Source of the DNA: a virus
Taxonomy: Duplodnaviria; Heunggongvirae; Uroviricota; Caudoviricetes
Length of the DNA: 64,000 nt
Reading direction: 5' to 3' (one strand)
IMG/VR virus record: IMGVR_UViG_2910903598_000005
Span: 69,058 to 133,057 of that record
A model generated the notes under the pieces. That model did no database searches. It saw only the letters and a list, made by a program, of their open reading frames with translations, and was not told the DNA's origin. Numbering within the stretch: the first letter of the stretch is position 1; each line of letters begins with the position of its first letter. The position numbers were made by a program, and so were the translations under genes. Positions 11,259-61,745 of the stretch are shown here, in pieces.

Positions 11259-11972
11259 ATGGAAACAAACAGTATTAAGATCGGAGAAAATGATTTACAA
11301 GTCAAAGAATGGAATGGGCAGAGAGTTGTTACATTCAAAGATATTGACAGAGTTCATCAAAGACCTGACGGAACGGCAGGGAGAAACTTTAGAAAGAATA
11401 GAAATCATTTAATTGAGAACGAGGATTACTTTAAAGTTTGTCCCGACGAAATTCGTCGACACAACATCATGTATGTGTCAGAAAGATTACATCAAGATAT
11501 TGTGCTTTTAACAGAAAGTGGTTATCTGTTAATCGTGAAATCATTTACGGATGATCTTGCATGGGATGTGCAACGGAAATTAGTTAATACATATTTTAAG
11601 TTCAAAGAAACAATGGAAAACTTACAGCCTGTTGAGAATGGAATGGTTTTATCAACTGGAAAATTTGAAGAAGCTGTAGAGAGTATTGTATCTTGTGCAG
11701 ACACATTCAAATCTATGATTGATTATTCAACGATCAATTATAAGCAACAGCAGATTTTGCTTAAGACAGCCAGAATGAGAGTTGCGGATCTTTTAGGTGG
11801 TGCTAAATCACCTGAGTATAAGGAAAAGAGCCGAACATATTTTAAAAACTTATGGCAGAACTTTTGTTATAAGTTTGGATGTGGTTCTTATAAAGACCTT
11901 AATCCGCAATATATGGTTGGTGGAATTGCAGAGTTATGGATTTTACAATGGGAATATAAAGAACATAAGTAG
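11259..11972 (+). CDS. KilA-N/ORF6N-domain protein (Bro-like DNA-binding)
   Basis: WNGQRVVTFKDIDRVHQRPDGTAGRNFRKNRNHLIENEDYFKV matches the ORF6N/KilA-N N-terminal pattern. Confidence 0.55.
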   Translation: METNSIKIGENDLQVKEWNGQRVVTFKDIDRVHQRPDGTAGRNFRKNRNHLIENEDYFKVCPDEIRRHNIMYVSERLHQDIVLLTESGYLLIVKSFTDDLAWDVQRKLVNTYFKFKETMENLQPVENGMVLSTGKFEEAVESIVSCADTFKSMIDYSTINYKQQQILLKTARMRVADLLGGAKSPEYKEKSRTYFKNLWQNFCYKFGCGSYKDLNPQYMVGGIAELWILQWEYKEHK

Positions 11973-13558: not shown

Positions 13559-13719
13559 AATGGAAAATATCATTTGATATGAATCATTCTGACACACCAG
13601 AAATTGACGAACTAGAATTAGAGTGAATACAAATTAATATAGGTAACTAGGACACTTATGGAAAATTCCAGAGTGTCTTTTTTAATACAAATTTTTACAT
13701 AAGAAAGGTGGAATTGATT

Positions 13720-15072
13720 ATGAATTTAAACGAAATGGAAATTCCTTGCGATCCAATTTTGGATAAAGCAAAGAGAGATGAACTGGTACAGAACACAGAA
13801 CTTTTGAAACAGGTTACAATCAAGCCGATCCCGTGGCTTCCTGGACGAGATTATATTACTACAGAACAGGTAGCACGATTTTTTGATGGAGATGTTGACG
13901 AGGTTAAGAGATTGTGTACGAAGTATCGCAAAGAGTTTTTAGACGATGGAATGGAAGTTAAGACAATACAAGAAATCATTGACGGTCAGGACGCAACAAC
14001 GGAAAAACAGAAGGGAAGAATCATTGTAACGTATCCGAACGGATTGAATATCTCATTCGGCTATAAGGGTGCTAAGGTGTTTACTCTTAAATGTTTGATC
14101 AGATTGTCTTTACTGATGGAAACTTCAAGCCTTGCTGAGAACGTAAGACATTATGTTTTTATTAATGAGTACATCACGATGGAAGAGCAGAGAGAACAAG
14201 AGCAGGTAGAGGCAGGTGTGCAGCTTGTAGACACAACGGAAATTTTAGGTAGAAGAATTGACTTATACAGAAGCATTGAAGATCCGTTATTCTTGGCAAG
14301 AGATGTTGCAGAATGGATTGATTATAGTAAACGTCCTGATGGAAGTTATAAAACAGATATGATGTTACAGGCGATTGATTCAGAGGAAAAATATAAGACC
14401 AAAATCTTAACCGCCAATAATGTTGGCGGGTCAAATTTAGGTCAGATTGATTCTACGGGAAAGACTATTAATCCATTTTGGTTTCTGACAGAAGATGGAC
14501 TCTATGAAGTATGTATGCAGTCACGCAAACCGATTGCAAAGCAGATGAAGAAACAGATTAAAGAATATCTTAGAAACATTCGTAAGACAGGCGGTGCGGT
14601 TGACTTTGGAAAAGAGTCACAGTTCATTGAACACTACTTCCCGTCATTTTCTGAGGATGTCAAGCTTGCTATGGTAACCGATCTGCGAACACAAAACAAA
14701 GAACTCAAAGAAGAGAATCAGAAGTTACAGAATGATAATAAGCTATTAGCAGCGGAAATTTTGACGTGGGATGATCGCAATAAGATGAACGCTGGAATTA
14801 GGAAGTTGGCTGCCGTTACAGGAACACAATTCTCTGTTATGTGGAACGAGCTTTATAAGAACTTGCAATACAAATATCAGATTGATGTTAAGAAACGTGG
14901 TAAGAAACCATTTCTTCAGTGGATTCAAGAACATGAATGGGATAAGGTAATGAAAGTCTTTTGTGCAATGTGTGAAGCTAGAAACCTATCTCCAACAGAT
15001 ATGTTCCAACAGACAGCACCAGTGGAAAATTTATATGATAATGAAGATGAGGATGATGAAGTATGGAATTAA
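13720..15072 (+). CDS. Bro-N/KilA-N-domain protein (antirepressor-like), about 450 aa
   Basis: Contains ARDVAEWIDYS...EDGLYEVCMQSRKPIAKQMKKQIKEYLRNIRKTGG (Bro-N pattern) and an N-terminal ORF6N-like segment. ATG in context AAAGGTGGAATTGATTATG. Confidence 0.55.
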   Translation: MNLNEMEIPCDPILDKAKRDELVQNTELLKQVTIKPIPWLPGRDYITTEQVARFFDGDVDEVKRLCTKYRKEFLDDGMEVKTIQEIIDGQDATTEKQKGRIIVTYPNGLNISFGYKGAKVFTLKCLIRLSLLMETSSLAENVRHYVFINEYITMEEQREQEQVEAGVQLVDTTEILGRRIDLYRSIEDPLFLARDVAEWIDYSKRPDGSYKTDMMLQAIDSEEKYKTKILTANNVGGSNLGQIDSTGKTINPFWFLTEDGLYEVCMQSRKPIAKQMKKQIKEYLRNIRKTGGAVDFGKESQFIEHYFPSFSEDVKLAMVTDLRTQNKELKEENQKLQNDNKLLAAEILTWDDRNKMNAGIRKLAAVTGTQFSVMWNELYKNLQYKYQIDVKKRGKKPFLQWIQEHEWDKVMKVFCAMCEARNLSPTDMFQQTAPVENLYDNEDEDDEVWN

Positions 15073-15630: not shown

Positions 15631-16725
15631 ATGAACCTACAGTTAGTAAAAACGGAAAATTTTAACGATATATCGTGTGATTTTTATAGTGCTGAGGACG
15701 ATATTTGGATGACAAGAAAGCAGATCGGAGAGGCACTGGAATATGGAGATCCACAGAAAGCAATTGATAATTTGCACAATAGATATAGAGATAGACTGGA
15801 TAAATATTCAGTTACCCTCAAACTGGGGGCTACTGATAACAAGAAGTATGACACTACACTCTATAATGAACGTGGCGTGATGGAAATTTGTAGATGGAGC
15901 AGACAGCCAAAGGCAAACGCCTTCATGGATTGGGTTTGGGACGTGATTTCCTCTTATCGTCATGGAAATTTAAAAACAGGAACTCCTGTAACAACAGTAG
16001 AACAGTTTCTTACAGAACAGACAGAACTTATGAAGCAGATGGAAAAGAATAATGAACGTCTGTATAAAGTTACTATTAAGGGTTTCAATCAGTTAGCAGA
16101 CATTGTGAAAGAGATGAAAGCCGAACGGAAAGAATTGTATAAGCAGATCAGCAAACCAACAAAAGATATTCCAGTAGTAGATACTGAAAGTGTTATCGCA
16201 GAATATAAGCTCAATGAATGGAAGTCCAATGTCTATTCAATCATTGATGATATTCTAAAAGAATCTGATGAATTAGGGACTACTACAAGAGATATTCTCA
16301 GAGAAGCATACAGGTATCTTACTAACACATATGGAATTGTGTGGGAGCAGGATCGGAAAGAATACAAAGAGAAATATAATATCGGGGAAAGAGGTAATGT
16401 ACCAACGATTGATCTTTGCTATGACAAGTATCCTGATCTGCTAGTCAATTCATTGGAAAAACTTCTGCGACAGTTCAGGAAAGAAAATGCACAGCCTGAT
16501 TGGGAAGAAATGAAGATCAAAATTACCAATTATGCCAATCATATTGGAAATAAATCTAAAGGTGGAACGTCTGTTTATCGGAAAATCTACACTAAGATGA
16601 CAGAGAATGGAGTTAACTGGGATGAATATGCTCATGGCTTGTCTAAATCTCAGCTTATTAAAACTAATGCAACTTTGTACAACAGATTTTACGAAGCAGC
16701 GGTGGAAATTATTTCAGAAGAATAG
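15631..16725 (+). CDS. Bro-N/AntA-like antirepressor-family protein (364 aa)
   Basis: N-terminus NFNDISCDFYSAEDDIWMTRKQIGEALEYGDPQKAI...NERGVMEICRWSRQPKANAFMDWVWDVI matches the Bro-N pattern. Ribosome-binding site AAAGGAAG. Confidence 0.6.
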   Translation: MNLQLVKTENFNDISCDFYSAEDDIWMTRKQIGEALEYGDPQKAIDNLHNRYRDRLDKYSVTLKLGATDNKKYDTTLYNERGVMEICRWSRQPKANAFMDWVWDVISSYRHGNLKTGTPVTTVEQFLTEQTELMKQMEKNNERLYKVTIKGFNQLADIVKEMKAERKELYKQISKPTKDIPVVDTESVIAEYKLNEWKSNVYSIIDDILKESDELGTTTRDILREAYRYLTNTYGIVWEQDRKEYKEKYNIGERGNVPTIDLCYDKYPDLLVNSLEKLLRQFRKENAQPDWEEMKIKITNYANHIGNKSKGGTSVYRKIYTKMTENGVNWDEYAHGLSKSQLIKTNATLYNRFYEAAVEIISEE

Positions 16726-20695: not shown

Positions 20696-21646
20696 ATGGC
20701 AGCAACACAGTTTGAAGTTATTAAAACAGCAAACAATAATAACGCAGAAGAACCTGAAGCAAAGATCAAAAGACGTAAGGACGGAAATCCTAAATGGACT
20801 CGATCTAATAAACAAAAAGGCGTATCATCTTTAGTGTATCCAATTAAGAACAAAGAAAAATTTGCAGCCTTTAATGCATATTTTAGAGACCAGATTGATA
20901 AATCGTACACAGAGTACAAACGATATGTAGCTGCCAGAAACAATCTTTTGGTTGCAGTTGGAAACAATACAGCATATCGTATCTCTGATATCGTCAGACT
21001 CAAATGGGGCGATTTATTAGACGATAAGACTCGTAAGCAGGAAAAGAAAACAAAGAAATTCAGAACTGTATACTTTAACGATTTGGTAACTGAAGCAGTG
21101 GATATTTTCTTTGAAGCTGTTGCAGGAACTAAATATGATGTCAAGATTGATGGCGAAGTGCCAATGGATGATTATGTTTTTGGAACATGTAAGTCTGGAT
21201 CAGGACACATGACTGAAGCAAATGCTTTGGATTTTGTTAAAAAAGGTGCTAAAGCAGTTGGAATTGAGGACAATATTGGTACGCATACATTACGAAAGAA
21301 CTTTGTGTATTGGACACTTGTCGATCATAAAGATGATCAGAACGTATTGTATACACTTATGAGATTATTGAATCATAGTAGCCCTGCAATGACGTTTTTA
21401 TATGCTACAATTACAGAAGAGGAAACTCATGTGTTATTTGATGATATTGCTCAGACGTACAAGGATATTATCAGCGGAGCATTTAACGGATTAAAGGAAA
21501 ATGTTATTAATGTGAGTTATGATAGAGTTATGGAGATTATCAAGTGTGCTTATGAGACTGGTAAGGATGATGCAGATCAAAATGATAGGGTACATGAGGA
21601 CAATATGCAGGCACTAAAAGAGCTGCTGGAAGGAGTTATTTTATGA
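20696..21646 (+). CDS. tyrosine site-specific recombinase (XerC/D-like phage integrase family)
   Basis: Catalytic-domain motifs present: Arg in YRISDIVRLKWGDL, HxxR in GTHTLRKNF, and LLNHSSPAMTFLY with the Tyr nucleophile. Ribosome-binding site GAGAGGAGAG. Confidence 0.7.
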   Translation: MAATQFEVIKTANNNNAEEPEAKIKRRKDGNPKWTRSNKQKGVSSLVYPIKNKEKFAAFNAYFRDQIDKSYTEYKRYVAARNNLLVAVGNNTAYRISDIVRLKWGDLLDDKTRKQEKKTKKFRTVYFNDLVTEAVDIFFEAVAGTKYDVKIDGEVPMDDYVFGTCKSGSGHMTEANALDFVKKGAKAVGIEDNIGTHTLRKNFVYWTLVDHKDDQNVLYTLMRLLNHSSPAMTFLYATITEEETHVLFDDIAQTYKDIISGAFNGLKENVINVSYDRVMEIIKCAYETGKDDADQNDRVHEDNMQALKELLEGVIL

Positions 21647-25668: not shown

Positions 25669-26493
25669 ATGACAGAAGAAAAGAATGGTGTAAATGAAGC
25701 ATTGAATACGTTAGTGTTTAATAATGATGAGTTTGGAAATATTCGCACAGTGATTTTAGATAATAATCCGTGGTTTGTAGGGAAAGACGTAGCCAGTTGC
25801 CTTGGGTATGTAGATACGGTAAATGCATTAAAGAAACATATTGATGCCGAAGATAAGCGATTATTTCTAAGGTGTCAAATCGCCACCTTAGAAAATGTAC
25901 CAAACAGAGGACTTACATTTATTAATGAATCTGGTCTATATGCTTTAATTTTTGGAAGCAAGCTTGATAGTGCGAAAGAATTTAAACATTGGGTGACATC
26001 CGAAGTTCTTCCACAGATCCGTAAGACAGGTGGTTATATCCCAATTGATAAAGAAGATGATGATTTAACTATCATGGCGAAAGCATTGAATATTATGCAA
26101 AACACTTTGGTACAAAAGGATGAACTATTAGCCCAAAAAGAAGAAGTTATCAATCAGCAGAAACCACTTGTTGATTTTGCCAATACAGTCAGTGCCACAG
26201 AAACAATGGTTGACATGAAAACAATGGCAAAGCTTCTTGAGAAAGAAAATCAAGATATTCATATGGGCAGAAACAAATTATTTGCGTGGTTAAGAAAAGA
26301 AGGGTATCTCATGTCAGATAATACCCCATATGAAAGATATGTTAAGCAGGGCATTTTCAAATTAACAGAAAGTGAAGTTGAAACTAAGAATGGAAACAAG
26401 TTGATCACCAAAACATATGTGACTGGCAAAGGGCAATTATACTTGGCAAAGAAATTAGCACAATACTTTGCCTCACAGAGTGCATCAGCTTAG
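25669..26493 (+). CDS. Bro-N / KilAC-domain phage antirepressor
   Basis: IRTVILDNNPWFVGKDVASCLGY...NESGLYALIFGSKLDSAKEFKHWVTSEVLPQIRKTGGY is a canonical Bro-N domain. Ribosome-binding site TAGGAGG. Confidence 0.75.
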   Translation: MTEEKNGVNEALNTLVFNNDEFGNIRTVILDNNPWFVGKDVASCLGYVDTVNALKKHIDAEDKRLFLRCQIATLENVPNRGLTFINESGLYALIFGSKLDSAKEFKHWVTSEVLPQIRKTGGYIPIDKEDDDLTIMAKALNIMQNTLVQKDELLAQKEEVINQQKPLVDFANTVSATETMVDMKTMAKLLEKENQDIHMGRNKLFAWLRKEGYLMSDNTPYERYVKQGIFKLTESEVETKNGNKLITKTYVTGKGQLYLAKKLAQYFASQSASA

Positions 26494-31285: not shown

Positions 31286-32746
31286 ATGATTGAAGTAATT
31301 GGAACAGTGGTACCAGTGGTTGTTGCGGTAGGTGGCGTAGGAGCTATTATCGGTAGCGGCTATGTCAAAGCAAGTCCAGATAAAGCTTATATTATTTCTG
31401 GACTTAGAAAGACACCTAAGACATTAATTGGTAAGGCAGGGTTAAAAATCCCATTCTTTGAAAAAGCAGATCATCTTAATCTTGAGTTAATTCCAATTGA
31501 TGTTAAGACATCAAGTTCTGTGCCTACAGCAGATTATATCAATATCAATGTAGATGCAGCGGTCAATGTAAAGGTTAGCAGTAATCCAGAAAGATTAAAA
31601 CTTGCAGCAGAAAACTTCTTAAATAAGCCAGTAGGCGATATTGGACAGGTCGCAAGAGAAGTCCTTGAAGGTAATATGCGAGAGATCGTTGGAAAGATGA
31701 GCCTCGAAGAAATGGTTTCTGATCGTCAGAAATTTGCACAGCTTGTTACAGAAAATGCGAAGCCAGACCTTGCTGCAATGGGATTAGATATCATCAGTTT
31801 TAATGTGCAGAATTTTATGGATGATAATGATGTTATTGAAAATCTTGGTGTAGATAATGTTGTTAAAATTCAGAAGAAGGCTGCAATTTCCAGAGCTGAA
31901 AGCGAAAGAGATATTGAAAAAGCAAAAGCAATGGCTGAAAAAGAAGCGAATGATGCAAGGGTTGAGTCAGAAACAGCGATCGCAGAAAAGAATAACAATC
32001 TGGAAATTAAAAAATCTGAACTTGAGAAGATTTCAAAAGCAAAGAAGGCTGAGGCAGATGCAGCATACAAGATTCAGGAAGAAAAATCACGTAAAGAAAT
32101 TGAAGTTGTAACTGCGGATGCTAATATTATGCGTCAGGAAAAGGAAATTGAACTGAAGCGTAAAGACGTTGAGGTAACAGAGCAGACATTAGATGCGCAG
32201 ATTAAGAAACAAGCAGAAGCTGAAAAATATGCTTCTCAGCAGAGAGCAGATGCAGACTTATACAAGAGACAGAAAGAATCTGAAGCTAATAAATATGCTA
32301 AAGAAAAAGAAGCTGAATCTACAAAATATGCTATGGAACAGGAAGCTGAAGGTATTCGTGCAAAGGGTGTAGCAGAAGCCGAGGCAATCAAAGCTAAAGG
32401 TATTGCTGAAGCAGAAGCAATCGAAAAGAAAGCAGAAGCTATGAAACAGATGGGTAAAGCTTCTATTGTAGAAATGATGTGCCAGATGTTCCCAGAAGCA
32501 GTTAAAAATGCAGCCGCACCATTAGGAAATGTAGGAAGTATCACTATGTATGGAGAAGGAAACACAACAAAATTAACAAAAGATATTATGAATGTTGTGA
32601 ATCAGGTATCAGATGGTGTTAAAGGATCTACAGGTGTTGATCTTGCAAAGATGCTAAAAGATTTTGTTTCTGAAGATAAAGAAGTAGAATCTACAGATAA
32701 TGAAAATCTTGGAACACCAGAGCCAGCAGATTACCGTGAGTTCTAA
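31286..32746 (+). CDS. flotillin-like SPFH/Band-7 membrane protein (FloT/YqiK-like)
   Basis: N-terminal transmembrane helix, an SPFH core (LIGKAGLKIPFFEKADHLNLELIPIDVKT...), and a long Ala/Glu/Lys-rich coiled coil with EA repeats (AEAEAIKAKGIAEAEAIEKKAEA). Ribosome-binding site AAAGGAGA. Confidence 0.8.
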   Translation: MIEVIGTVVPVVVAVGGVGAIIGSGYVKASPDKAYIISGLRKTPKTLIGKAGLKIPFFEKADHLNLELIPIDVKTSSSVPTADYININVDAAVNVKVSSNPERLKLAAENFLNKPVGDIGQVAREVLEGNMREIVGKMSLEEMVSDRQKFAQLVTENAKPDLAAMGLDIISFNVQNFMDDNDVIENLGVDNVVKIQKKAAISRAESERDIEKAKAMAEKEANDARVESETAIAEKNNNLEIKKSELEKISKAKKAEADAAYKIQEEKSRKEIEVVTADANIMRQEKEIELKRKDVEVTEQTLDAQIKKQAEAEKYASQQRADADLYKRQKESEANKYAKEKEAESTKYAMEQEAEGIRAKGVAEAEAIKAKGIAEAEAIEKKAEAMKQMGKASIVEMMCQMFPEAVKNAAAPLGNVGSITMYGEGNTTKLTKDIMNVVNQVSDGVKGSTGVDLAKMLKDFVSEDKEVESTDNENLGTPEPADYREF

Positions 32747-36987: not shown

Positions 36988-37167
36988 ATGGACGTTTTGT
37001 TTTACATAATTTGGGTATTGGCGTTTATTGTAATCGTAGCAATTGGTGTTGGAGTACCATACATGACTTATTACAATTACAAAAGGATTAAGGCAATGGA
37101 TAAGAAACTTACGGGTATGTGCACAGGTCTTGGCATTATGTTAAGACCAGAAGAGGATGATGAATAA
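36988..37167 (+). CDS. small membrane protein (59 aa)
   Basis: Ribosome-binding site AAAAGGAGAAAG. Hydrophobic N-terminus. Stop overlaps the next start. Confidence 0.45.
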   Translation: MDVLFYIIWVLAFIVIVAIGVGVPYMTYYNYKRIKAMDKKLTGMCTGLGIMLRPEEDDE

Positions 37168-37884: not shown

Positions 37885-38052
37885 ATGAGAAGATTAATTT
37901 GGTATATCAGGTCTTGTTTCTGCAAACATGATTGGGAACAGATATTTGATTCAGATATATATTGGAGCAATAAATCAACTAAGCCTTATAAGTGTGAAAA
38001 AGTTTATCGCTGCAAGAAATGTGGTTGTGAGAAAAGATATGTAATAGAGTAA
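37885..38052 (+). CDS. small zinc-ribbon protein (55 aa)
   Basis: CxxC motifs (CFCKH ... CEKVYRCKKCGCEK). Ribosome-binding site GGGAGAA. Confidence 0.35.
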   Translation: MRRLIWYIRSCFCKHDWEQIFDSDIYWSNKSTKPYKCEKVYRCKKCGCEKRYVIE

Positions 38053-38085
38053 AATCTGAGTTTTATTTACGGGAGGTGATTAGAC

Positions 38086-38397
38086 ATGGGAGCAAATATT
38101 GAGTTTGTCATTGGCTATGCGATTGGATTTTGTATCGTTGGAGCGATTGTATTTCTGAGATACGAAAGAAAGTTAGATCGGATGAGGCAGGCAAATGTAA
38201 GTTTGATCTTAGATAAGATGTCGTTTATGGCTGATGCTAACAACAAAGAAAATGATACATATAATAAGGAAGAAACTCGTTCAGATGTTAAGGACGCAGT
38301 GAAGTATGCAATGAAGAAAAGTCATCCAGATAATGGTGGCAGTGCAGATGATTTTAGAAAATTTAGAGAGCTTTATGAAGAAATGGAAGGTAAGTAA
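38086..38397 (+). CDS. membrane-anchored J-domain protein (DnaJ-like co-chaperone fragment with HPD motif)
   Basis: N-terminal transmembrane helix IEFVIGYAIGFCIVGAIVFL. C-terminal DVKDAVKYAMKKSHPDNGGSADDFRKFRELYEEM matches J-domain helices II-III with the invariant HPD. Ribosome-binding site GGGAGGTG. Confidence 0.6.
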   Translation: MGANIEFVIGYAIGFCIVGAIVFLRYERKLDRMRQANVSLILDKMSFMADANNKENDTYNKEETRSDVKDAVKYAMKKSHPDNGGSADDFRKFRELYEEMEGK

Positions 38398-38679
38398 ATG
38401 CTAAAGGTCGGAGATAGAGTTTATATTTATAGAATGAAGCCAGCGGCTAAAGGAGGTTTGGTTAGAAATAACGACAAAGGTACAATTACTCGCATCGGAA
38501 CAGATGAGATTGGTCGCAGATATGGGTATAGATATATGACCGTTAAATTTGACAAACCAGTAAATACCTCTAATCGTGATATTTACTCTTTAGAATTTTT
38601 TGAAAACAAGGATGATCGTAAGATAGGTAGAATACGAGATATTGGATTCTTACTATATGGTAGAAAATGTGAGGAATAA
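38398..38679 (+). CDS. hypothetical protein (93 aa)
   Basis: Start overlaps the upstream stop (TAAATG). Confidence 0.5.
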   Translation: MLKVGDRVYIYRMKPAAKGGLVRNNDKGTITRIGTDEIGRRYGYRYMTVKFDKPVNTSNRDIYSLEFFENKDDRKIGRIRDIGFLLYGRKCEE

Positions 38680-39247: not shown

Positions 39248-39552
39248 TGAACAACTTCTTATATATTGAATCACGGGAAGAAGAGAATACATCCCTCGAT
39301 TCTAAACGTGTTTTATTGAATGAAGAAAATTACAAACATATTATTTCATCATTAGATCATTATCCACCGACGGCAGACGAAGTTAAGAAAGCAATTTGTA
39401 TTTTGACTGGACGATTGATCTACAGAAGCGTTTGGAATATGGAATCTGATATTGATAGTTTAAATATGAGTTTATCACCGCCAAAAGAAATGACGGTTGC
39501 AGAAATTGAAAAGGAACTTGGTTATAAAGTTAAGATTGTAAAGGAGAAATAA
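39247..39552 (+). CDS. hypothetical protein (101 aa)
   Basis: Ribosome-binding site AAAGGAGAG. Confidence 0.5.
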   Translation: MNNFLYIESREEENTSLDSKRVLLNEENYKHIISSLDHYPPTADEVKKAICILTGRLIYRSVWNMESDIDSLNMSLSPPKEMTVAEIEKELGYKVKIVKEK

Positions 39553-39863
39553 TGCCAATGGCAAAAAAGAAACAAGGAATGTCGTTTGAAATGATGATGC
39601 AAAATATGGAAATTAATCCAAGGCAATTGTATCGTCGTAGTTCGTGGAAGAAGACACGAACAACTTATGATTATGTGTTTATGATGTGCGAAGAAGAATT
39701 AAATGAGATTATTCCATTTGATAAAAAATATAAAATGAAACCACTCTTATGTAGAGACCAAAATGGAGTTATAACATTGGGATGGTTGCCTACACAAGAG
39801 GATATTTTCGCAAATGATTGGGTTGAGCAAGGATGGGATTTTAACAGTAAAAGGAAGAGGTGA
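39552..39863 (+). CDS. hypothetical protein (103 aa)
   Basis: Ribosome-binding site AAGGAGAA. Confidence 0.5.
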   Translation: MPMAKKKQGMSFEMMMQNMEINPRQLYRRSSWKKTRTTYDYVFMMCEEELNEIIPFDKKYKMKPLLCRDQNGVITLGWLPTQEDIFANDWVEQGWDFNSKRKR

Positions 39864-39871
39864 ATAATTAA

Positions 39872-40171
39872 TTGAATTTTATAAAAGCAATGATCGCAAT
39901 AAAAAAAGACAAAACTACTATAAGAAGAGGCATTTGGGGAAAGGAAAAGTATTTGAAAATTTATTCGTCAGAATTAACTAATGTTTATTTTGAGTGTAAT
40001 GATATGGGTGAATATAAGCCAGATTCAATTATTTTTTTATTTGATAAAGAAAACGCAGAAGTTTGGATACCTCTTGCGGAAGATGTATATGCAGATGACT
40101 GGGAAATATATGTTGAATCGGTTAAAAAGCCAAATCAATCAAAAGCAAAGGTGAAGGAGAAAGAAGAATGA
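39872..40171 (+). CDS. hypothetical protein (TTG start)
   Basis: Ribosome-binding site AAGGAAGAGGTG upstream of TTG. Confidence 0.4.
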   Translation: MNFIKAMIAIKKDKTTIRRGIWGKEKYLKIYSSELTNVYFECNDMGEYKPDSIIFLFDKENAEVWIPLAEDVYADDWEIYVESVKKPNQSKAKVKEKEE

Positions 40172-55713: not shown

Positions 55714-57307
55714 CATTTTGAACGATTGCAGAGGACTTTTTGAAGATGAGGTGTTTGAAATTATCATGCAGGAGCGTGGTATTGACGATCCAGAGCATTT
55801 TCTAAATCCTACGGAAGATGATTTACTTTCTCTTGATGACTTAAAAAATATTGATAAAGCATATAAGCTTTTGGTAGATGCAGTATACAAAGATAAACGT
55901 ATTGCAGTACATTTTGACACAGATACTGACGGAGTTGCAGCGGGAACTATTATTACACGACATTTAAAAAACATGACAGAAAATCCAGTAGATGTATACA
56001 TTAACCGAGGCAAACAGCATGGATTAGCAAATCAGGACATTGCTAAGTTTTATGGGTATGATTTACTGATTGTCGTTGATAGTTTGGATAAAGACGAGAC
56101 TCAGTATAAGGATTTAAAAGAAACAGGAGTTGATGTGATTGTGTTAGACCACCATGCCATCGATCCAGATGTTCCTTATGACAACTATTGCACATTAGTT
56201 TCTTCTCAGAGAGAATATGAAAATCCACAGCTATCTGGCGCAGGTGTTGTTTGGAAGTTTTGCAAGTATATTGATGAGCAGAATGGTACAGATTATGCAG
56301 ATGATTTGGTCGATCTAGCAGGTGTTGGGCTGATTGCAGATATGATGGATATGAGAGTAATGGAGAATCGTTACATTGTATCCGAAGCTTTGAAAGAAAT
56401 TAGAAATCCTGCGATTAAGAAGATTATTGGTGGATTTGAATTCAACAGCACAGCAGTTGCTTTTAGTATTGCACCGTTGGTTAATGCTGCAAACAGAATG
56501 GATCAGAATGAAATTGCCCTAAATGCTTTCCTTGAAGACGACAATAAAAAGTTACGAGGATATATTAAACAGTTAAAGCAATGCAAAGAAGACCAAAATG
56601 AAGAGGTCGCACAGCTGATGCCAATGATTGTGGAACAGTGTGAAGCTCAGAGTTATAAAAAGATGATCACAACTTTTATCGACACTGATTATGGTATTTC
56701 TGGGTTAATTGGAAACAAATTGCTTGAAAAATACCAGAAGCCGATTCTTGTGCTAAAGAAAAATGAAGATACATATGCAGGATCTATGCGAGCAGTTGGT
56801 GTAAAAGACTTCCGACAGATGTGTAATAACAGTCAGTTGGCTGAAGCAAATGGACATGAACTTGCCAGTGGTATTGAAATTCCTAGAAAGAACTTCGCTG
56901 AGTTCACCTCTTATATAGAAGAAACTCTTTCAGATAAGCCAGAAGATACAACAGTTGATGTCGATATTATGCTTGATATTTCAGACATCACAAGAAAAAT
57001 GGTTGACATGATTAAGAAAATTGATCGTATTTCTGGACAAGGATTTAAACCTGTAAGAGTTTATATTGAAGAGATTGACGACTATGACATTGGTCAGATG
57101 AGCAATTATAAACATCTTGTCCTGAAACCATGTAACAATGATAAATTGTGGATCATTAAATGGAACTACGATGGATCATTTGAGGATATGGAAGACCACT
57201 CTATGATGAATGATGAATTTTGTGCTGTAACTACTCTTGATTGTGGATTCTTTGGCAGAAAGTTTGTGCTGAAAGCAGTGTGTGATTCACTTGAAGAGGT
57301 GGGATGA
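55688..57307 (+). CDS. RecJ-like single-strand DNA exonuclease (DHH/DHHA1)
   Basis: Motifs IAVHFDTDTDGVAAG, VIVLDHH and distal GSMRAVGV/ANGHELASG. Confidence 0.7.
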   Translation: MKTSKKKYNILNDCRGLFEDEVFEIIMQERGIDDPEHFLNPTEDDLLSLDDLKNIDKAYKLLVDAVYKDKRIAVHFDTDTDGVAAGTIITRHLKNMTENPVDVYINRGKQHGLANQDIAKFYGYDLLIVVDSLDKDETQYKDLKETGVDVIVLDHHAIDPDVPYDNYCTLVSSQREYENPQLSGAGVVWKFCKYIDEQNGTDYADDLVDLAGVGLIADMMDMRVMENRYIVSEALKEIRNPAIKKIIGGFEFNSTAVAFSIAPLVNAANRMDQNEIALNAFLEDDNKKLRGYIKQLKQCKEDQNEEVAQLMPMIVEQCEAQSYKKMITTFIDTDYGISGLIGNKLLEKYQKPILVLKKNEDTYAGSMRAVGVKDFRQMCNNSQLAEANGHELASGIEIPRKNFAEFTSYIEETLSDKPEDTTVDVDIMLDISDITRKMVDMIKKIDRISGQGFKPVRVYIEEIDDYDIGQMSNYKHLVLKPCNNDKLWIIKWNYDGSFEDMEDHSMMNDEFCAVTTLDCGFFGRKFVLKAVCDSLEEVG

Positions 57308-58575
57308 TTATGTATGAAGATTTAATTGCAAAAATTATCCCAACATTAAAATTTAAATTTCCATATTCTGTTGAAGATTATGGAAGAAATCTATATCTTG
57401 AAAACTACCATTGTCATAAAGATTTTAGTAATACATCAACTCCAGATTGTGCAGAATCAATTGAAAATTATGCAAAACGTATTCATGAATTTGGTGCAAA
57501 ATGTCTTTATTCAGGGGAGCATGGGTCACAAGGAAACCAGTTTGAAGTATATAAAGTGGCTGAAAAGGAGCATTTGAAATATATTCATTCTGCTGAAGCC
57601 TACTGGGTGAAAGATAGAAAAGAAAAAGACAAAGCAAACTGTCATATGATGATACTTGCGAAAAATGCTGAAGGGAGAGAAGATATTAACTTCGCCCTTT
57701 CTATGGCAAATATTGATGGATATTATTACAAACCAAGAATTGACTTAGAATTACTTTTTAATATTCCAAAAGAGAATGTAATTGTTACATCAGCTTGCTT
57801 ATCTGGTTGGCATTATAAAGATGCAGAGGACATTTGGTTAAAAATACATGACTATTTTGGCGATAATTTCTTTTTAGAAGTGCAGGCTCATAATACTGAT
57901 CCACAAAAAAGACTTAACAGAAAAATCTTAAAACTTGCAAAAGAACACAATATTCAGATCATTTGTGGGCTTGATAGTCATTACATTGATGATAAGACGG
58001 CAGTAAAAAGGGATCAGATTTTAAAGTACAAGCATATTGAATATCCAGAAGAATTTGGATGGTATATGGATTATCCAGACACAACAACGGTTATAGAGCG
58101 ATTTCAAGAGCAAGGAGTTCTTTCTGATGAAGAAGTCTTAACTGCTATTATGAACACAAACGTGTTCATGTCAGAATGCGAAGAAATTGTTTTTGACAGA
58201 AAATTTAAAATTCCAAGCGTTCATAAAGATAAAACATATGAAGGCAAATGTGCTATTTATAAGAAAATATTAAACAAAGCCTATGCTAAAGAAAAAGAAA
58301 AATCAAAAGAAAAAGCAGATGGAATTAGGTATGAAGCAAAACAAGTCATGGATTCAGGAGTTGTAGATTACTTTTTAACAAGTAAAGCAATTGTAGATGA
58401 TGCAGTAAATTGCGAAGGTGGAATATTAACTACTACGTCAAGAGGTAGCGCTGCATCATTCATTACAAATAAGTTGCTAGGATTAACAACGGTAGATAGA
58501 TTCAATGCAGATATTCCTATTTATCCAGAACGCTTTTTAACAAAAGACCGTGTTTTAGCAGGTCAGATGCCCGAT
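57304..58575 (+). CDS. DNA polymerase III alpha subunit, exon 1 (PHP domain), ending at the conserved MPD of the MPDxDxDF motif
   Basis: ENYHCHKDFSNTSTPDCAESIENYAKRIHEFGAKCLYSGEHGSQGNQFEVYKVAEKEHLKYIHSAEAYW is a PHP domain. The last residues are ...ERFLTKDRVLAGQMPD, then an in-frame stop. Confidence 0.65.
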
Positions 58576-59717
58576 TAAAACAATAGTGCATATAAACCAG
58601 TAAAGGAGGAATTTTTATTACAGGTATTTACTGTATTGAAAATATTGTAAATCATAAAAAATATGTTGGACAAAGTGTAGATATAAATGATCGATGGAAA
58701 CATCATCTAAATAGTTTAAGAAGAAACGATCATGCAAATTGTTATTTGCAACGTAGTTTTAATAAATATGGTGAAGAAAGTTTTAAACATTATATTTTAG
58801 AAGAGTGTAAAAGAGAAGATCTTGATGAGAAAGAGAAGAGTTGGATTAAAAAATTAAACACATATAAAAATGGCTACAATATGAATGGTGGTGGATCTGG
58901 ATGTTATATCCCAAATCCTACAGATGAATATAGAGAAAAAATGCGAAGAATGGTTATGGGGACGAATAACCCAAATTATGGGCATAAATGGACTGAAGAA
59001 ATGAAAAGAAATTTATCTCAAAAAAAGATTGGGAAAAATTTAAATGAAAATAACCCAAATGCCAAGTCTGTAATATGTGTTGAAACTCTAAAAATATATA
59101 AGACACAAAAGGATGCTGCAAAAGAATTACATATTAAAAATACATCATCAATATCAAGGTGCTTATTAAATAAACAAAATTTAGCTTATGGTTATCATTT
59201 TGTTTTATATACAAAAGAAATGTATGAATATTTATTAAACAATCAATTTGAGTATTTGTGCGAATGTAATGTCGGACGAAAAATCTATGCAGATATGACT
59301 AATAAAAGATTTTATTTGTTGAAAGATATGATGAAAAAATTGTATCCACTACTAAATTGCACTCAACGAGAACTAAAACAATTTCTTAAACAAGAAAAGT
59401 TCAATGTAAATAACGTAGAATATGTACTGTTATAATAGTCGCTATATGTAGTGATATATATAGAAAACCCAGAATATCAGGGGAAGTCCTAAAACCTTGT
59501 CCACCAAGCATTAGAGAAATCAAAATGTGGCATTGTTAACTGCAATGATATGGTAACAGCGGCAAGGATTGGATAATCCTGAGAGATAGCCCTAAGTTGT
59601 TTAAATATACAATATGGGAAGCTCGCAACGACTACCAATGGGAATCCGAGATAATATCGACGATTATGGTATAGTCTACTCCCCTATTAAAATATCGGGA
59701 AACCGAGGGTATCAAGG
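58576..59717 (+). mobile_element. Putative group I intron carrying a GIY-YIG homing-endonuclease ORF, inserted in the Pol III alpha gene
   Basis: Lies between conserved polymerase segments. The 3' ~280 nt has group-I-like core elements: R-like GCAACGACTACC (59625-59636) pairing with S-like TATAGTCTAC (59672-59681) through GACTA/TAGTC, and a P4-like AGGATT/AATCCT (59565-59580). Boundaries are approximate, not confirmed. Confidence 0.5.
58617..59435 (+). CDS. GIY-YIG homing endonuclease (I-TevI-like), probable non-AUG (ATT) start
   Basis: GIYCIENIVNHKKYVGQSVDINDRWKHH is a GIY-YIG motif. The frame is open from 58596. Ribosome-binding site AAAGGAGGA at 58602-58610. There is no ATG, GTG or TTG before the GIY motif; ATT at 58617 has 7-nt spacing. 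Confidence 0.55.
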   Translation: MTGIYCIENIVNHKKYVGQSVDINDRWKHHLNSLRRNDHANCYLQRSFNKYGEESFKHYILEECKREDLDEKEKSWIKKLNTYKNGYNMNGGGSGCYIPNPTDEYREKMRRMVMGTNNPNYGHKWTEEMKRNLSQKKIGKNLNENNPNAKSVICVETLKIYKTQKDAAKELHIKNTSSISRCLLNKQNLAYGYHFVLYTKEMYEYLLNNQFEYLCECNVGRKIYADMTNKRFYLLKDMMKKLYPLLNCTQRELKQFLKQEKFNVNNVEYVLL

Positions 59718-61745
59718 ATTGACCTAAATGTAGCTACTCAGGAGCCATTTGTGAAAGCTGCAAAAAAACTTCTTGGAGAGCATGGATGTTATCCGTTAAT
59801 GGCTATAGAAAAGTTAAAAGAGAAAGCAGCATGGCAATTATATGCTGGAGCTAATGATGTTAGTTCAGAAGATGCAAATAGAATTTCAAAATATCTTGAT
59901 GATTATAATAAAGCATTGAAATATGCTGATGAAGAAGATAAAGATTTTATTCATGTTGAAGACTACATTCCAGAAGAATATGTTGATTTATTTAAACAAA
60001 GCAATGAGTACCAAGGAATCACTATCAATCTAAAAGTACATGCTTGTGGACATTTTATATTCGACGGAGATATTCGTAGAGAAGTAGGATTAATTAGTGC
60101 TGTTTCAGAAACGACTGGGAAAAGAACAATTTGTGCCGCCATTGAAGGTGGCTATCTTGATGAATTTGGATATGTAAAAGAAGATTTTCTTATTGTAGAT
60201 AGTGTTTATCTTACATATAAATTTTTTCACAGTATAGGAATGGAGGTTCCTACATCTGAAGAACTGAGAGAGATGATAGAAGGAGATCATAAAACATGGG
60301 ATATTTATGCAAAAGGAATTACTTGTTGTGTTAACCAATGTGAAAAAGAAGCGACAACAAATAGAGCAAAGAAATATAAGCCACAAAATTTAGCAGAATT
60401 AAGTAGTTTCATTGCTGCAATTAGACCAGGATTTGCATCTTTATTAAATACTTTTTTAAATCGTGAACCATATTCAACAGGCGAAAAGAAAATTGATGAG
60501 TTGTTACAAGATACAGCACATTTTATGATTTATCAAGAGTCAATTATGAAGGTATTATCTTTCCTGCAATTGAAGATGGGCGAAACGTATGGAGTTATTA
60601 AAAATATCTCGAAAAAAAAATATAAAGCTCATCCTGAAAAGTTAAAAGAACTGAAAGAAAGATTAAAAGATGGTTGGCAAATTGAAATTGGAGAACTTAA
60701 TAATTTCAATAATATATGGGAAGTTATAGACTCATCAGCTTCGTACGCCTTCAACTCTCCGCATGCTTGGTCGATGGCTGAGGATTCTGCCTATCAGGCA
60801 TGGTTTAAAGCTCATTATACGAAAATGTTCTATGAAGTAGCAATTAATCATTACCAAGAAAAAAATAAGAAAGATAAAATTGATGCTCTAGTAAAAGAAG
60901 CCATTAAATTTTGGGGATATAAATTGGGAGATTATCGGTTTGGAGCAGACAATAGAAAAGTCACGATTGATGAAGAACATAAAATTATATATCCCAATTT
61001 ATCAAGCATTAAAGGATTTGGAGAAGGTGTCGCCAATTCACTATATGATTTAGGACAGGCTAAATACAGCTCATTCATAGAAGTAATCAATGTATTAAAG
61101 CAGAATCATCTCAATAAAACAGTGATAGACAAATTAATTAAAATTAATTATTTTGTAGAGTTCGGAGATGCGAATACCTTATTAGAAACAGTTAAATATT
61201 ATGAATTATTAAATGGGAAAAAGCAATTGTCCAAAGAAAAGGCGATAGAATATCACATTTCTTCTGATTTACTTTTGAAGTATGGTCATGAGACAAAAAC
61301 ACTTTATAATCAATTAGATTCAGAACAATTACTTATTGAATCTATAAAAAATATTCCATACAGAGAATTGTCTTTGAAAGAAAAATTAGACAATCAGAGA
61401 AATGTTCTCGGAATTGTAAGCTATGCTAACGTAAAAGTTAATAAACGATTATATTATGTTTCAGATCTTGATGTTAAAAAATCCATCGTTAACATTCAGT
61501 TATATGAAATTTACTCTGGAAAAACACAGAAAGTAAAAATGTGGACAAACCAATATAAGAAGAACCCATTCGATGAAGGAGATATTCTATATCTGAAATC
61601 AGTTGAGAAGAAACATAAAAAAGAACCAACTGGGGAGATCAATACAAAAACAGGAAAGAAAATCTACAAAGATGTGCCAGATAAATTTGAGTTTTGGCTT
61701 AAGAATTTCACTATTAAAAATGACGTAGAGGAGGAATTAGTATAA
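59718..61745 (+). CDS. DNA polymerase III alpha subunit, exon 2 (palm/fingers core); the 5' boundary is a hypothesis
   Basis: ASYAFNSPHAWSMAEDSAYQAWFKAHYTKMF matches the Pol III alpha FNKSHAAAY...LKAHYP motif. The frame is open from 59691 (IDLNVATQ... could continue MPD-IDL). The track start is GTG 59751. Confidence 0.6.
   Translation: MDLNVATQEPFVKAAKKLLGEHGCYPLMAIEKLKEKAAWQLYAGANDVSSEDANRISKYLDDYNKALKYADEEDKDFIHVEDYIPEEYVDLFKQSNEYQGITINLKVHACGHFIFDGDIRREVGLISAVSETTGKRTICAAIEGGYLDEFGYVKEDFLIVDSVYLTYKFFHSIGMEVPTSEELREMIEGDHKTWDIYAKGITCCVNQCEKEATTNRAKKYKPQNLAELSSFIAAIRPGFASLLNTFLNREPYSTGEKKIDELLQDTAHFMIYQESIMKVLSFLQLKMGETYGVIKNISKKKYKAHPEKLKELKERLKDGWQIEIGELNNFNNIWEVIDSSASYAFNSPHAWSMAEDSAYQAWFKAHYTKMFYEVAINHYQEKNKKDKIDALVKEAIKFWGYKLGDYRFGADNRKVTIDEEHKIIYPNLSSIKGFGEGVANSLYDLGQAKYSSFIEVINVLKQNHLNKTVIDKLIKINYFVEFGDANTLLETVKYYELLNGKKQLSKEKAIEYHISSDLLLKYGHETKTLYNQLDSEQLLIESIKNIPYRELSLKEKLDNQRNVLGIVSYANVKVNKRLYYVSDLDVKKSIVNIQLYEIYSGKTQKVKMWTNQYKKNPFDEGDILYLKSVEKKHKKEPTGEINTKTGKKIYKDVPDKFEFWLKNFTIKNDVEEELV

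What the first reader, a model, noticed from the sequence alone, without database searches (positions are those of the whole stretch)
38086..38397. Phage-encoded membrane-anchored J-domain protein
What the sequence shows: one N-terminal transmembrane helix, then a C-terminal segment with a J-domain signature including the invariant HPD (KYAMKKSHPDNGGSADDFRKFRELYEEM).

Established knowledge: J-domains recruit and activate DnaK/Hsp70 ATPase; viral J-proteins are used to hijack host chaperones.

Inference: tethering a J-domain at the membrane suggests localised DnaK recruitment, for example for replication-complex or virion-assembly chaperoning, or for sequestering DnaK.
Basis: partly seen in the sequence, partly recalled or inferred. 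Interest (0 to 1): 0.55.

Follow-up and report, generated by a model that had tools for sequence, protein, structure and literature searches.

The report
Membrane-anchored truncated J-domain prophage protein
A small protein of a large gut-bacterium prophage carries a membrane anchor and a cut-down version (two helices plus the HPD loop) of the J-domain that normally switches on the DnaK/Hsp70 chaperone, so it is a new, truncated variant of a known kind of co-chaperone, and its activity is still untested.

Summary
ORF 38086-38397 (+, 103 aa, good Shine-Dalgarno) is a real gene under purifying selection (dN/dS 0.18 overall, 0.05 in the C-terminal module). It has an N-terminal transmembrane helix with predicted N-out/C-in topology and a C-terminal helix-HPD-helix segment.

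The segment is homologous to the J-domain core (helix II, HPD loop, helix III). hhalign gives 89-98% probability, and DnaJ positions K26, H33, P34, D35 and F47 are conserved. It is not a complete J-domain: helix I and helix IV are absent, and Pfam DnaJ scores 14.6 bits against a cutoff of 27.8. Proteins with the same HPDNGG signature plus helix I pass Pfam (40-52 bits), so truncation explains the low score. Fold searches cannot decide, because an alpha-hairpin is generic.

The family has at least 394 clusters at 50% identity, in phages and prophages of Lachnospiraceae. The gene is in 53/53 evaluable members of this ~140-170 kb Anaerostipes hadrus prophage lineage. It has no conserved partner gene.

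Phage J-proteins (Rki) and membrane-anchored J-proteins (DjlA, DjlB/C, Pam18) are already known, so this is a new variant of a known kind. DnaK recruitment at the membrane is the best-supported mechanism but is only inferred.

The parts
38071..38079 (+). Shine-Dalgarno sequence GGGAGGTGA, 6 nt upstream of the ATG
   Evidence: Read directly from the sequence.
38086..38397 (+). Complete ORF, 103 aa plus TAA stop. It encodes the membrane-anchored truncated J-domain protein and is identical to RefSeq WP_173774545.1, 'hypothetical protein [Anaerostipes hadrus]'.
   Evidence: Purifying selection, dN/dS 0.18. Present in 53/53 evaluable lineage members.
38098..38157 (+). Transmembrane helix, residues ~5-24 (IEFVIGYAIGFCIVGAIVFL). 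Predicted N-out/C-in signal anchor.
   Evidence: KD19 = 2.29, uncharged 4-aa N-flank, K/R-rich C-flank; conserved in 23/23 and 39/47 homologues. Part of the AF2 helix 3-78. dN/dS 0.155.
38158..38274 (+). Variable helical linker or stalk, residues 25-63. This is the least conserved part.
   Evidence: dN/dS 0.29. Length varies from 36 to 107 aa across the family. A heptad signal is seen in 16/47 members but not in this protein (z=-0.57). pLDDT dips to 67 at residues 51-60.
38275..38322 (+). Helix II equivalent, residues 64-79 (TRSDVKDAVKYAMKKS). It is basic; K73 corresponds to DnaJ K26, A71 to A24 and V72 to Y25.
   Evidence: hhalign register. A71, K73, Y74, A75, M76, K77, K78 and S79 are invariant in A1. 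Predicted helical at pLDDT ~90.
38323..38343 (+). HPD loop, residues 80-86 (HPDNGGS). H80/P81/D82 correspond to DnaJ H33/P34/D35.
   Evidence: Invariant in 47/47 sampled family members. Lies in a loop between helices in both AF2 models. The same HPDNGG[SN] loop occurs in Pfam-validated J-domains.
38344..38388 (+). Helix III equivalent, residues 87-101 (ADDFRKFRELYEEME). F90 corresponds to DnaJ F47, Y97 to Y54 and M100 to L57. The protein ends 2 residues later, so there is no helix IV.
   Evidence: hhalign register. F90 is invariant and Y97 nearly so. AF2 helix 87-101. The tail after HPD is 18-39 aa (median 21) family-wide.
38398..38679 (+). Abutting downstream ORF (93 aa, ORFan) whose ATG directly follows the TAA stop. 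It is a possible co-translated neighbour, not an obligate partner.
   Evidence: Start is adjacent to the stop in every locus that has it, but it is present in only 41/54 and 40/57 lineage loci and in none of the distant loci. No Pfam, PHROG or PADLOC hit.

Best explanation
The gene encodes a small class C-like J-protein reduced to its working core.

Anatomy (shown or predicted here):
- A single N-terminal helix inserts in the cytoplasmic membrane with N-out/C-in topology.
- A variable helical stalk of about 40 residues projects into the cytoplasm.
- The last 40 residues form a hairpin homologous to J-domain helix II, the HPD loop and helix III.

Mechanism (inferred):
- The basic helix II docks on the nucleotide-binding domain of host DnaK in its ATP state.
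- H80/P81/D82 contact the DnaK interdomain linker and the equivalent of R167.
- This triggers ATP hydrolysis, so DnaK is captured and activated at the inner face of the membrane. DjlA does this in E. coli and Pam18/Tim14 does it at the mitochondrial import motor.
- The protein has no client-binding domain, so it acts by localisation.

Benefit to the prophage or phage (speculative): chaperoning of membrane-associated phage processes, or diverting DnaK from its normal duties, as the phage RB43 J-protein Rki does.
For: 1. Homology of the core to J-domains:
- hhalign of the family against 8 Pfam-verified classical J-domains gives 91.8% (E=7e-7, 40 columns) with A1 and 89.2% with the 47-member A3.
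- Against a set that also holds Pfam-validated HPDNGG J-domains it gives 97.8% (E=1e-12, 45 columns).
- PF00226 is the only recurrent Pfam hit, in 14/23 members.
- The best PDB sequence hits are SV40 T-antigen J-domains, E=0.028-0.11.

2. Bridging sequences: the identical HPDNGG[SN]..[DE]F signature occurs in proteins with helix I that pass Pfam DnaJ at 51.9, 42.2 (plus DnaJ_C) and 39.9 bits. Versions without helix I score 13-21 bits. Truncation therefore explains the low score.

3. Conservation falls on the positions that the literature marks as functionally critical (PMC1906734, PMC8215388). K73=K26, H80/P81/D82=H33/P34/D35 and F90=F47 are invariant. M100=L57 is conservatively hydrophobic.

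4. Selection: dN/dS is 0.05 in the module against 0.29 in the linker.

5. Structure: the HPD sits in a loop between two helices at pLDDT ~90. The Tim14 J-domain superposes at 1.3-1.4 A with 30% identity.

6. Topology puts the module in the cytoplasm, where DnaK is.

7. No gene is consistently linked to it across phage types. No Hsp70 was found among the window ORFs scanned against Pfam. This fits a conserved host partner.

8. Some members replace the TM anchor with a zinc ribbon. This is the 'targeting domain plus J' logic of class C J-proteins.
Against: - No experiment and no complex model. DnaK binding and ATPase stimulation are inferred only.
- Helix I is absent. In canonical J-domains the helix I residues Y7 and L10 stabilise the II/III hairpin, and L10A abolishes function (PMC1906734). 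A bare hairpin may not fold or position the HPD correctly on its own.
- Helix IV is absent.
- DnaJ Y25 is replaced by V72.
- DnaJ R36 is replaced by N83. R36G inactivates E. coli DnaJ (cited in PMC1906734), although N at this position also occurs in Pfam-validated J-domains.
- Pfam score is 14.6 against a cutoff of 27.8.
- The A4 reference set was partly selected through the family's own HPDNGG pattern, which inflates the 97.8% figure. The unbiased figure is 89-92%.
Confidence: 0.55

Rival explanations
1. J-derived decoy or inhibitor. The hairpin still binds the J-site of DnaK, but because it lacks helices I and IV and any client-binding domain it does not support productive cycles. It would sequester DnaK at the membrane or block host DnaJ. 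Possible outcomes are rewired host proteostasis, or, when expressed from the prophage, exclusion of superinfecting phages whose replication needs DnaK/DnaJ.
For: The homology evidence is the same as for the best explanation. The truncation and the absence of a client-binding domain are established. The element is an integrated prophage. The gene sits among accessory and anti-defence genes, including two Tad2-like genes 1.2 kb downstream. Rki, the known phage J-protein, acts by perturbing DnaK-dependent regulation and is toxic in a DnaK-dependent way (PMC3486835).
Against: An invariant HPD under very strong purifying selection is what is expected for ATPase triggering, not for mere binding. Known J-like scaffolds such as Pam16 have lost the HPD (my own knowledge). 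There are no expression data. Sequestration and activation are not mutually exclusive.
Confidence: 0.2
2. Not a J-module at all. On this view it is a small single-pass membrane protein of unrelated function, such as lysis timing, superinfection exclusion or membrane remodelling. Its conserved C-terminal hairpin would bind some other target, and the HPD would be a convergent or fortuitous motif.
Against: Profile-profile probability is 89-98% in the correct register across 40-45 columns. The conserved positions coincide with the J-domain functional residues, not only HPD. Full J-domains share the exact HPDNGG[SN]..[DE]F loop. Shuffled controls never reach the family's median score. The SH3_3/3D adjacency is not conserved. 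There is no PADLOC or functional PHROG match.
Confidence: 0.12
3. The module is an incomplete J-domain that becomes functional only in a complex. The missing helix I/IV packing would be supplied by homodimerisation through the stalk, or by another phage protein such as the abutting 93-aa ORF.
For: In canonical domains the hydrophobic face of the hairpin (V72, M76, F90, F93, L96, Y97) is buried by helix I. A heptad periodicity is significant in the linker of 16/47 members. The downstream ORF starts directly after the stop codon in all loci that have it.
Against: The window protein's own linker shows no heptad signal (z=-0.57). The 93-aa ORF is missing from about a quarter of lineage members and from all distant relatives, while the HPD gene persists. 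No multimer modelling was possible with these tools.
Confidence: 0.13

Closest known systems
DjlA (E. coli class C J-protein)
   Same: N-terminal transmembrane anchor and C-terminal cytoplasmic J-module. No client-binding domain. Thought to localise DnaK activity to the inner membrane (PMC3486835, PMC8215388).
   Different: DjlA has a complete four-helix J-domain; its recalled J-domain scores 45.9 bits in Pfam. The census lists a 'TerB-DnaJ' architecture class, which I take (my own knowledge) to be DjlA's central domain (PMC10410713). DjlA is about 270 aa, chromosomal and proteobacterial. The protein here is 103 aa, has no TerB hit, lacks helices I and IV, and is a phage/prophage gene of Clostridia.
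Pam18/Tim14 and human DNAJC19 (mitochondrial import-motor J-proteins)
   Same: Single-pass anchor, short linker, and a J-domain at the extreme C-terminus that ends after helix III. The loop is HPDKGGS, compared with HPDNGGS here. The length is similar (DNAJC19 is 116 aa). Tim14 (2guz_A) is the J-domain that superposes on the model: 1.3-1.4 A, 30% identity over 37 columns.
   Different: Pam18/DNAJC19 keep helix I (EAALILGV) and pass Pfam (29.5 bits). They are eukaryotic and work with the J-like partner Pam16. The resemblance here is an analogy plus shared J-domain ancestry, not family membership.
Rki (gene 057w of T4-like phage RB43), the first characterised phage J-protein
   Same: A phage-encoded protein with an HPD-dependent J-module that acts on host DnaK (PMC3486835).
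   Different: Rki is soluble and 237 aa, with a complete N-terminal J-domain (~75 aa) and a C-terminal domain of unknown function. It stabilises sigma32 in E. coli. It has no TM and no sequence relation beyond the J-core.
Polyomavirus large and small T-antigen J-domains
   Same: These are the best PDB sequence matches (1gh6_A, 2pf4_E): HPDKGGDEEKMKKMNTLYKKME against HPDNGGSADDFRKFRELYEEME. They are viral J-modules with an HPD-x-GG loop.
   Different: They are eukaryotic-virus proteins with helix I and a long extra loop, and they are N-terminal and nuclear. E-values are only 0.03-0.5.
Phage and archaeal full J-domains with the HPDNGG loop (L085, L088, L014)
   Same: They carry the identical HPDNGG[SN]..[DE]F loop and helix III signature. 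L085 also ends right after helix III at the protein's C-terminus.
   Different: They keep helix I (...EVLGV...) and pass Pfam DnaJ (40-52 bits). They have other partner domains (DnaJ_C, Fer2) and no TM anchor.

Membership tests
J-domain (Pfam PF00226; J-domain proteins, class C) | Invariant His-Pro-Asp tripeptide in the loop between two antiparallel helices | tested here: met
   H80/P81/D82 are invariant in 47/47 sampled members. They lie in a loop between helices at pLDDT ~90.
J-domain (Pfam PF00226; J-domain proteins, class C) | Basic helix II with the conserved A-[YF]-[KR] positions (DnaJ A24, Y25, K26) | tested here: met
   A71 and K73 are invariant in A1. K69, K77 and K78 add positive charge. 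Y25 is replaced by V72, which is hydrophobic but not aromatic.
J-domain (Pfam PF00226; J-domain proteins, class C) | Helix III with the conserved core residues (DnaJ F47, Y54, L57) | tested here: met
   F90 is invariant, Y97 is nearly invariant, and M100 is hydrophobic (M/I/L).
J-domain (Pfam PF00226; J-domain proteins, class C) | Helix I (DnaJ Y7/L10, '..[ILV]LG[VIL]') packing on the II/III hairpin | tested here: not met
   The Pfam match starts at profile position 10 and hhalign starts at DnaJ residue 17. The upstream sequence is polar and unconserved. AF2 shows no separate helix packing on the hairpin.
J-domain (Pfam PF00226; J-domain proteins, class C) | Helix IV | tested here: not met
   The protein ends 21 residues after HPD; the family median is 21 and the range 18-39. 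Helix IV is reported as dispensable in E. coli DnaJ and is also absent in Pam18-type domains (PMC1906734).
J-domain (Pfam PF00226; J-domain proteins, class C) | Score above the curated Pfam gathering threshold (27.8 bits) | tested here: not met
   14.6 bits, E=0.035. The best E-value in the family is 0.0052.
J-domain (Pfam PF00226; J-domain proteins, class C) | Significant profile-profile homology to bona fide J-domains in the correct register | tested here: met
   91.8%, 89.2% and 97.8% probability. Reference sequences were verified by Pfam.
J-domain (Pfam PF00226; J-domain proteins, class C) | J-domain fold recovered by structure search | tested here: inconclusive
J-domain (Pfam PF00226; J-domain proteins, class C) | HPD-dependent stimulation of Hsp70/DnaK ATPase | not testable with these tools
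   Requires biochemistry or genetics.
DjlA family | N-terminal TM, central TerB-like domain (my reading of the census's 'TerB-DnaJ' class as DjlA's architecture) and a complete C-terminal J-domain | tested here: not met
   The TM is present. There is no TerB or other Pfam domain, and the J-domain is incomplete. The census lists a 'TerB-DnaJ' class and names DjlA as the most abundant class C architecture (PMC10410713).
Pam18/Tim14/DNAJC19 family | Mitochondrial single-pass protein with a three-helix C-terminal J-domain that includes helix I | tested here: not met
   Helix I is absent. The origin is prokaryotic and viral. The architecture is analogous only.
Rki (RB43 057w) family | Soluble ~237-aa protein with an N-terminal complete J-domain | tested here: not met
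   The architecture is different (PMC3486835). No such hits appear in the homologue lists.

The most novel reading that the evidence does not exclude
This family may be the smallest natural J-module: a 40-residue helix II-HPD-helix III hairpin, without helices I and IV, that is sufficient to engage and fire DnaK. It would have been overlooked by Pfam-based J-protein censuses, yet it is present in about 400 sequence clusters of gut Clostridia phages. Temperate phages would use it, tethered to the membrane or in some members to a zinc ribbon, to relocate or disable the host Hsp70. One possible use is as a prophage-encoded block to superinfecting phages that depend on DnaK.
Probability: 0.35. Interest if true: 0.6.

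Novelty: new variant of a known kind. Interest (0 to 1): 0.42.

Why it matters
If the hairpin really activates DnaK, the helix II-HPD-helix III core would be an autonomous functional unit. That would define a minimal J-module useful for chaperone engineering. It would also mean that censuses of J-proteins based on the Pfam threshold miss a whole class.

Biologically, it would add a membrane-tethered Hsp70 recruiter to the toolkit of temperate phages of Lachnospiraceae. The carrier is a very common ~160 kb prophage of Anaerostipes hadrus, which I know as an abundant butyrate producer of the human gut. The exact protein is listed in 581 blocks of the assembly collection.

If it does not act on DnaK, it is simply one more conserved small phage membrane protein.

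Tried and rejected
- Megablast of the 6 kb neighbourhood against INPHARED phages gave no match.
- PHROGs gave only families of unknown function for the protein (best phrog_13942, E=3e-5) and nothing useful for its neighbours.
- PADLOC gave no match for the protein or its neighbours.
- The promoter/terminator scan found fewer promoter-like sites than in shuffles and no terminators, so no dedicated transcription unit is visible.
- I searched for a conserved partner gene. None is shared between the large-prophage lineage, the temperate Blautia-type prophages (where the gene follows dUTPase) and the other viral loci.
- The idea that the stalk is a coiled coil is not supported for the window protein (z=-0.57) and holds for only about a third of the family.
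- A signal-peptide reading, with a secreted C-terminus, was rejected. The N-flank has no positive charge, the hydrophobic run is 19-20 residues, and K/R residues follow it.
- I looked for a phage-encoded Hsp70 partner. None was found among the window ORFs scanned against Pfam.
- The key census (Barriot et al. 2020, J Mol Biol) could not be read. The string 'HPDNGG' occurs in no held paper.

Full report
**1. The observation**

A strong Shine-Dalgarno sequence, GGGAGGTGA, lies at 38071-38079. The quoted peptide is present, with HPD encoded at 38323-38331.

Residues 5-23 form a strongly hydrophobic stretch (mean Kyte-Doolittle 2.29). The N-flank is four uncharged residues, and the C-flank carries five K/R in fifteen residues. 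This is the signature of an N-out/C-in signal anchor, not a cleavable signal peptide. All 23 aligned homologues show the same pattern, as do 39 of 47 in a broader sample.

A bare HPD is not remarkable, since it occurs four times in the six-frame translation. The context is. An HMM built from eight classical J-domains alone ranks this ORF first of 772 ORF segments (E=2.9e-4, next 0.17). It scores every one of 47 family members at 6.3-17.5 bits, while 940 composition-matched shuffles never exceed 10.5.

The gene is real and constrained. Among 30 distinct orthologous sequences dN/dS is 0.18 overall, 0.155 in the TM segment, 0.29 in the linker and 0.05 in the C-terminal 40 residues.

**2. Is it a J-domain?**

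Single-sequence tests are sub-threshold.
- Pfam DnaJ (PF00226) gives 14.6 bits, E=0.035, against a cutoff of 27.8. The match covers only profile positions 10-47 of 63, that is helix II, the HPD loop and helix III.
- phmmer against PDB finds only SV40 large and small T-antigen and DNAJB9 J-domains, at E about 0.5-1.
- Family profiles improve the T-antigen hit to E=0.11 and 0.028.
- PF00226 is the only Pfam family that recurs across members, in 14 of 23.

Profile-profile comparison is clearer.
- hhalign of the family against that set gives 91.8% probability (E=7e-7, 40 columns) with the 23-member alignment and 89.2% with a 47-member alignment.
- The register is the expected one. A71/V72/K73 align to DnaJ A24/Y25/K26, H80/P81/D82 to H33/P34/D35, F90 to F47, Y97 to Y54 and M100 to L57.
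- The literature identifies exactly these helix II, loop and helix III positions as functionally critical (PMC1906734). It describes H33, P34 and D35 as contacting DnaK L391, P419 and R167/Q378 in the 5NRO complex (PMC8215388).
- In the family, K73, H80, P81, D82 and F90 are invariant or nearly so.

**3. Bridging sequences**

Scanning viral and genome collections with the family's own motif also returned proteins in which the identical HPDNGG[SN]..[DE]F loop and helix III are preceded by a canonical helix I (PYELLGV, WCEVLGV, PFKVLGI).
- These pass Pfam DnaJ comfortably: 51.9 bits (archaeal J+Fer2), 42.2 bits (viral, with a DnaJ_C domain) and 39.9 bits (viral, with the J-domain at the C-terminus ending after helix III).
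- Relatives without helix I score 13-21 bits.
- The query's low Pfam score is therefore a consequence of truncation rather than a divergent core. N after HPD, instead of the usual K/R, is within the repertoire of true J-domains.
- With these sequences added to the reference set, hhalign rises to 97.8% (E=1e-12, 45 columns). That figure is inflated by how the sequences were found. The unbiased estimate is about 90%.

**4. What is missing**

- Helix I is absent. The residues upstream of helix II are polar and unconserved. AlphaFold2 predicts no helix packing onto the hairpin.
- In the full-length model (pLDDT 84.8) one helix runs from residue 3 to 78, with a confidence dip at 51-60. A loop at 79-86 follows, then a helix at 87-101.
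- The isolated module (pLDDT 85.8) is a plain hairpin.
- Helix IV is absent, because the protein ends 21 residues after HPD. The family median is 21.
- Helix IV is reported as dispensable in E. coli DnaJ, and Pam18-type domains also lack it. Helix I residues Y7 and L10, however, stabilise the hairpin, and L10A is inactivating (PMC1906734). This is the main reason for caution.

**5. The family and its setting**

- An exhaustive profile search finds 394 clusters at 50% identity (269 at E<=1e-10). Among the best 150, lengths are 68-183 aa and the module ends within a few residues of the C-terminus in nearly all.
- The N-terminal part varies freely. It is usually a TM helix, but four sampled members have a CxxC...CxxC zinc ribbon instead. 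This suggests a modular plan: targeting domain, then stalk, then HPD hairpin.
- None of the homologues carries a precomputed Pfam domain.
- RefSeq calls the window protein 'hypothetical protein [Anaerostipes hadrus]' (WP_173774545.1). UniRef labels one Blautia hansenii member 'DnaJ domain protein'.
- The window is a phage-type region with nearly all genes on one strand at 33% GC. It encodes a DnaB-like helicase, a split Pol III alpha, AAA_24, antirepressors, an integrase, PcfJ, RlaP and SPFH/flotillin.
- It belongs to a lineage of ~140-170 kb elements found as IMG/VR viral contigs and embedded in bacterial contigs of 0.5-3.6 Mb. It is therefore a large integrated prophage.
- The nearest characterised phages, by Pol III alpha, are Clostridium phages c-st and phiCD211, at about 33% identity.
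- When lineage members are retrieved independently through the neighbouring DHH gene, the HPD gene is present in 53 of 53 evaluable loci, while its neighbours are patchy (16-52 of 57).
- In smaller temperate Lachnospiraceae prophages the homologue sits directly after dUTPase, in a nucleotide-metabolism block near the integrase.
- No neighbour is shared between these settings. No Hsp70 was found among the window ORFs scanned against Pfam. The likely partner is therefore a conserved host protein.

**6. Mechanism**

Shown or predicted here: a single-pass anchor with the C-terminus predicted to be inside, a variable helical stalk, and a strongly constrained hairpin homologous to the DnaK-contacting core of the J-domain.

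Inferred: the hairpin docks on host DnaK-ATP and triggers hydrolysis through H80/P81/D82. DnaK would then be recruited and clamped at the inner membrane face. This is the localisation logic of DjlA, DjlB/C, Pam18/Tim14 and Sec63 (PMC8215388).

Why the phage wants this is unknown. Candidates are chaperoning of membrane-associated phage processes, or diversion of DnaK as with Rki (PMC3486835).

Rivals:
- A decoy that binds but does not fire DnaK (0.2).
- A module that needs dimerisation or a partner to replace helix I (0.13).
- A non-J membrane protein with a fortuitous HPD (0.12).

**7. Comparison and novelty**

Phage J-proteins are known. [quoted passage not shown] Membrane-anchored class C J-proteins are also known.

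The protein is not a DjlA: it has no TerB-type domain and its J-domain is incomplete. It is not a Pam18 and not an Rki relative.

What is new is the truncation to a two-helix J-module, its invisibility to standard annotation, and the size and phage specificity of the family. I rate it a new variant of a known kind, with interest 0.42. The interest would rise if the hairpin proves sufficient to activate DnaK.

Noticed in passing
window 39552-39863 and 39872-40171 (+): Two adjacent Tad2-like (Thoeris anti-defence 2, PF11195) genes, scoring 34.2 and 45.3 bits against a cutoff of 25. They lie 1.2 kb downstream of the HPD gene and are present in only about half of lineage members (26/54, 27/57).
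   Followed up: partly
window 57304-58578, 58746-59435, 59751-61745 (+): The Pol III alpha gene is split into two ORFs: PHP plus the first part of the NTPase domain, then the rest of the NTPase, finger and HHH domains. Between them lies a 229-aa ORF carrying a NUMOD3 motif, which suggests a homing endonuclease inserted in the polymerase gene.
   Followed up: partly
window 31286-32746 (+); L005 1-1321: The prophage encodes an SPFH/Band-7 plus flotillin protein. A relative on a 189 kb contig has TerD and a weak PspA/IM30 hit just upstream of the same region. These are membrane-stress or membrane-organisation genes that could relate to a membrane-tethered chaperone recruiter.
   Followed up: no
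P0157, P0213, P0215, P0246 (family members, 169-183 aa): In these members the N-terminal TM helix is replaced by a CxxC...CxxC zinc ribbon (MGLFYKYKCKxCGK...C..CGTELSF), ahead of a long heptad-rich stalk and the same HPD hairpin. The targeting domain appears to be swappable.
   Followed up: partly
L082, L086, L090-L095 (IMG/VR viral contigs), proteins of 157-162 aa: A second phage family has an N-terminal helix II-HPDNGG-helix III module without the LG-type helix I (PF00226 at 18.6-20.8 bits), followed by a Trp-rich C-terminal domain. It is another truncated-J family missed by the Pfam threshold.
   Followed up: partly
L001-L004, L007-L010 (Lachnospiraceae prophages): In temperate prophages the HPD gene always directly follows dUTPase. 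It is often followed by one or two small HPr-like (PF00381) proteins, thymidylate synthase, or an SH3_3+3D cell-wall-type protein next to the integrase. Phage-encoded PTS-HPr-like proteins are unusual.
   Followed up: no
window 37885-38052 and 36988-37167 (+): Immediately upstream are a 55-aa Cys-rich ORF (CFCKH...CEKVYRCKKCGC), which may be a zinc ribbon and is present in 43/54 lineage loci, and a 59-aa single-TM ORF, present in 51/54. Neither has any database match.
   Followed up: partly
window 13708-15072, 15631-16725, 25669-26493, 11259-11972, 20696-21646 (+): There are three Bro-N domain proteins (one with a KilAC antirepressor domain), an ORF6N/ORF6C protein and a tyrosine recombinase. 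This fits a temperate element with several antirepressor-type genes.
   Followed up: no
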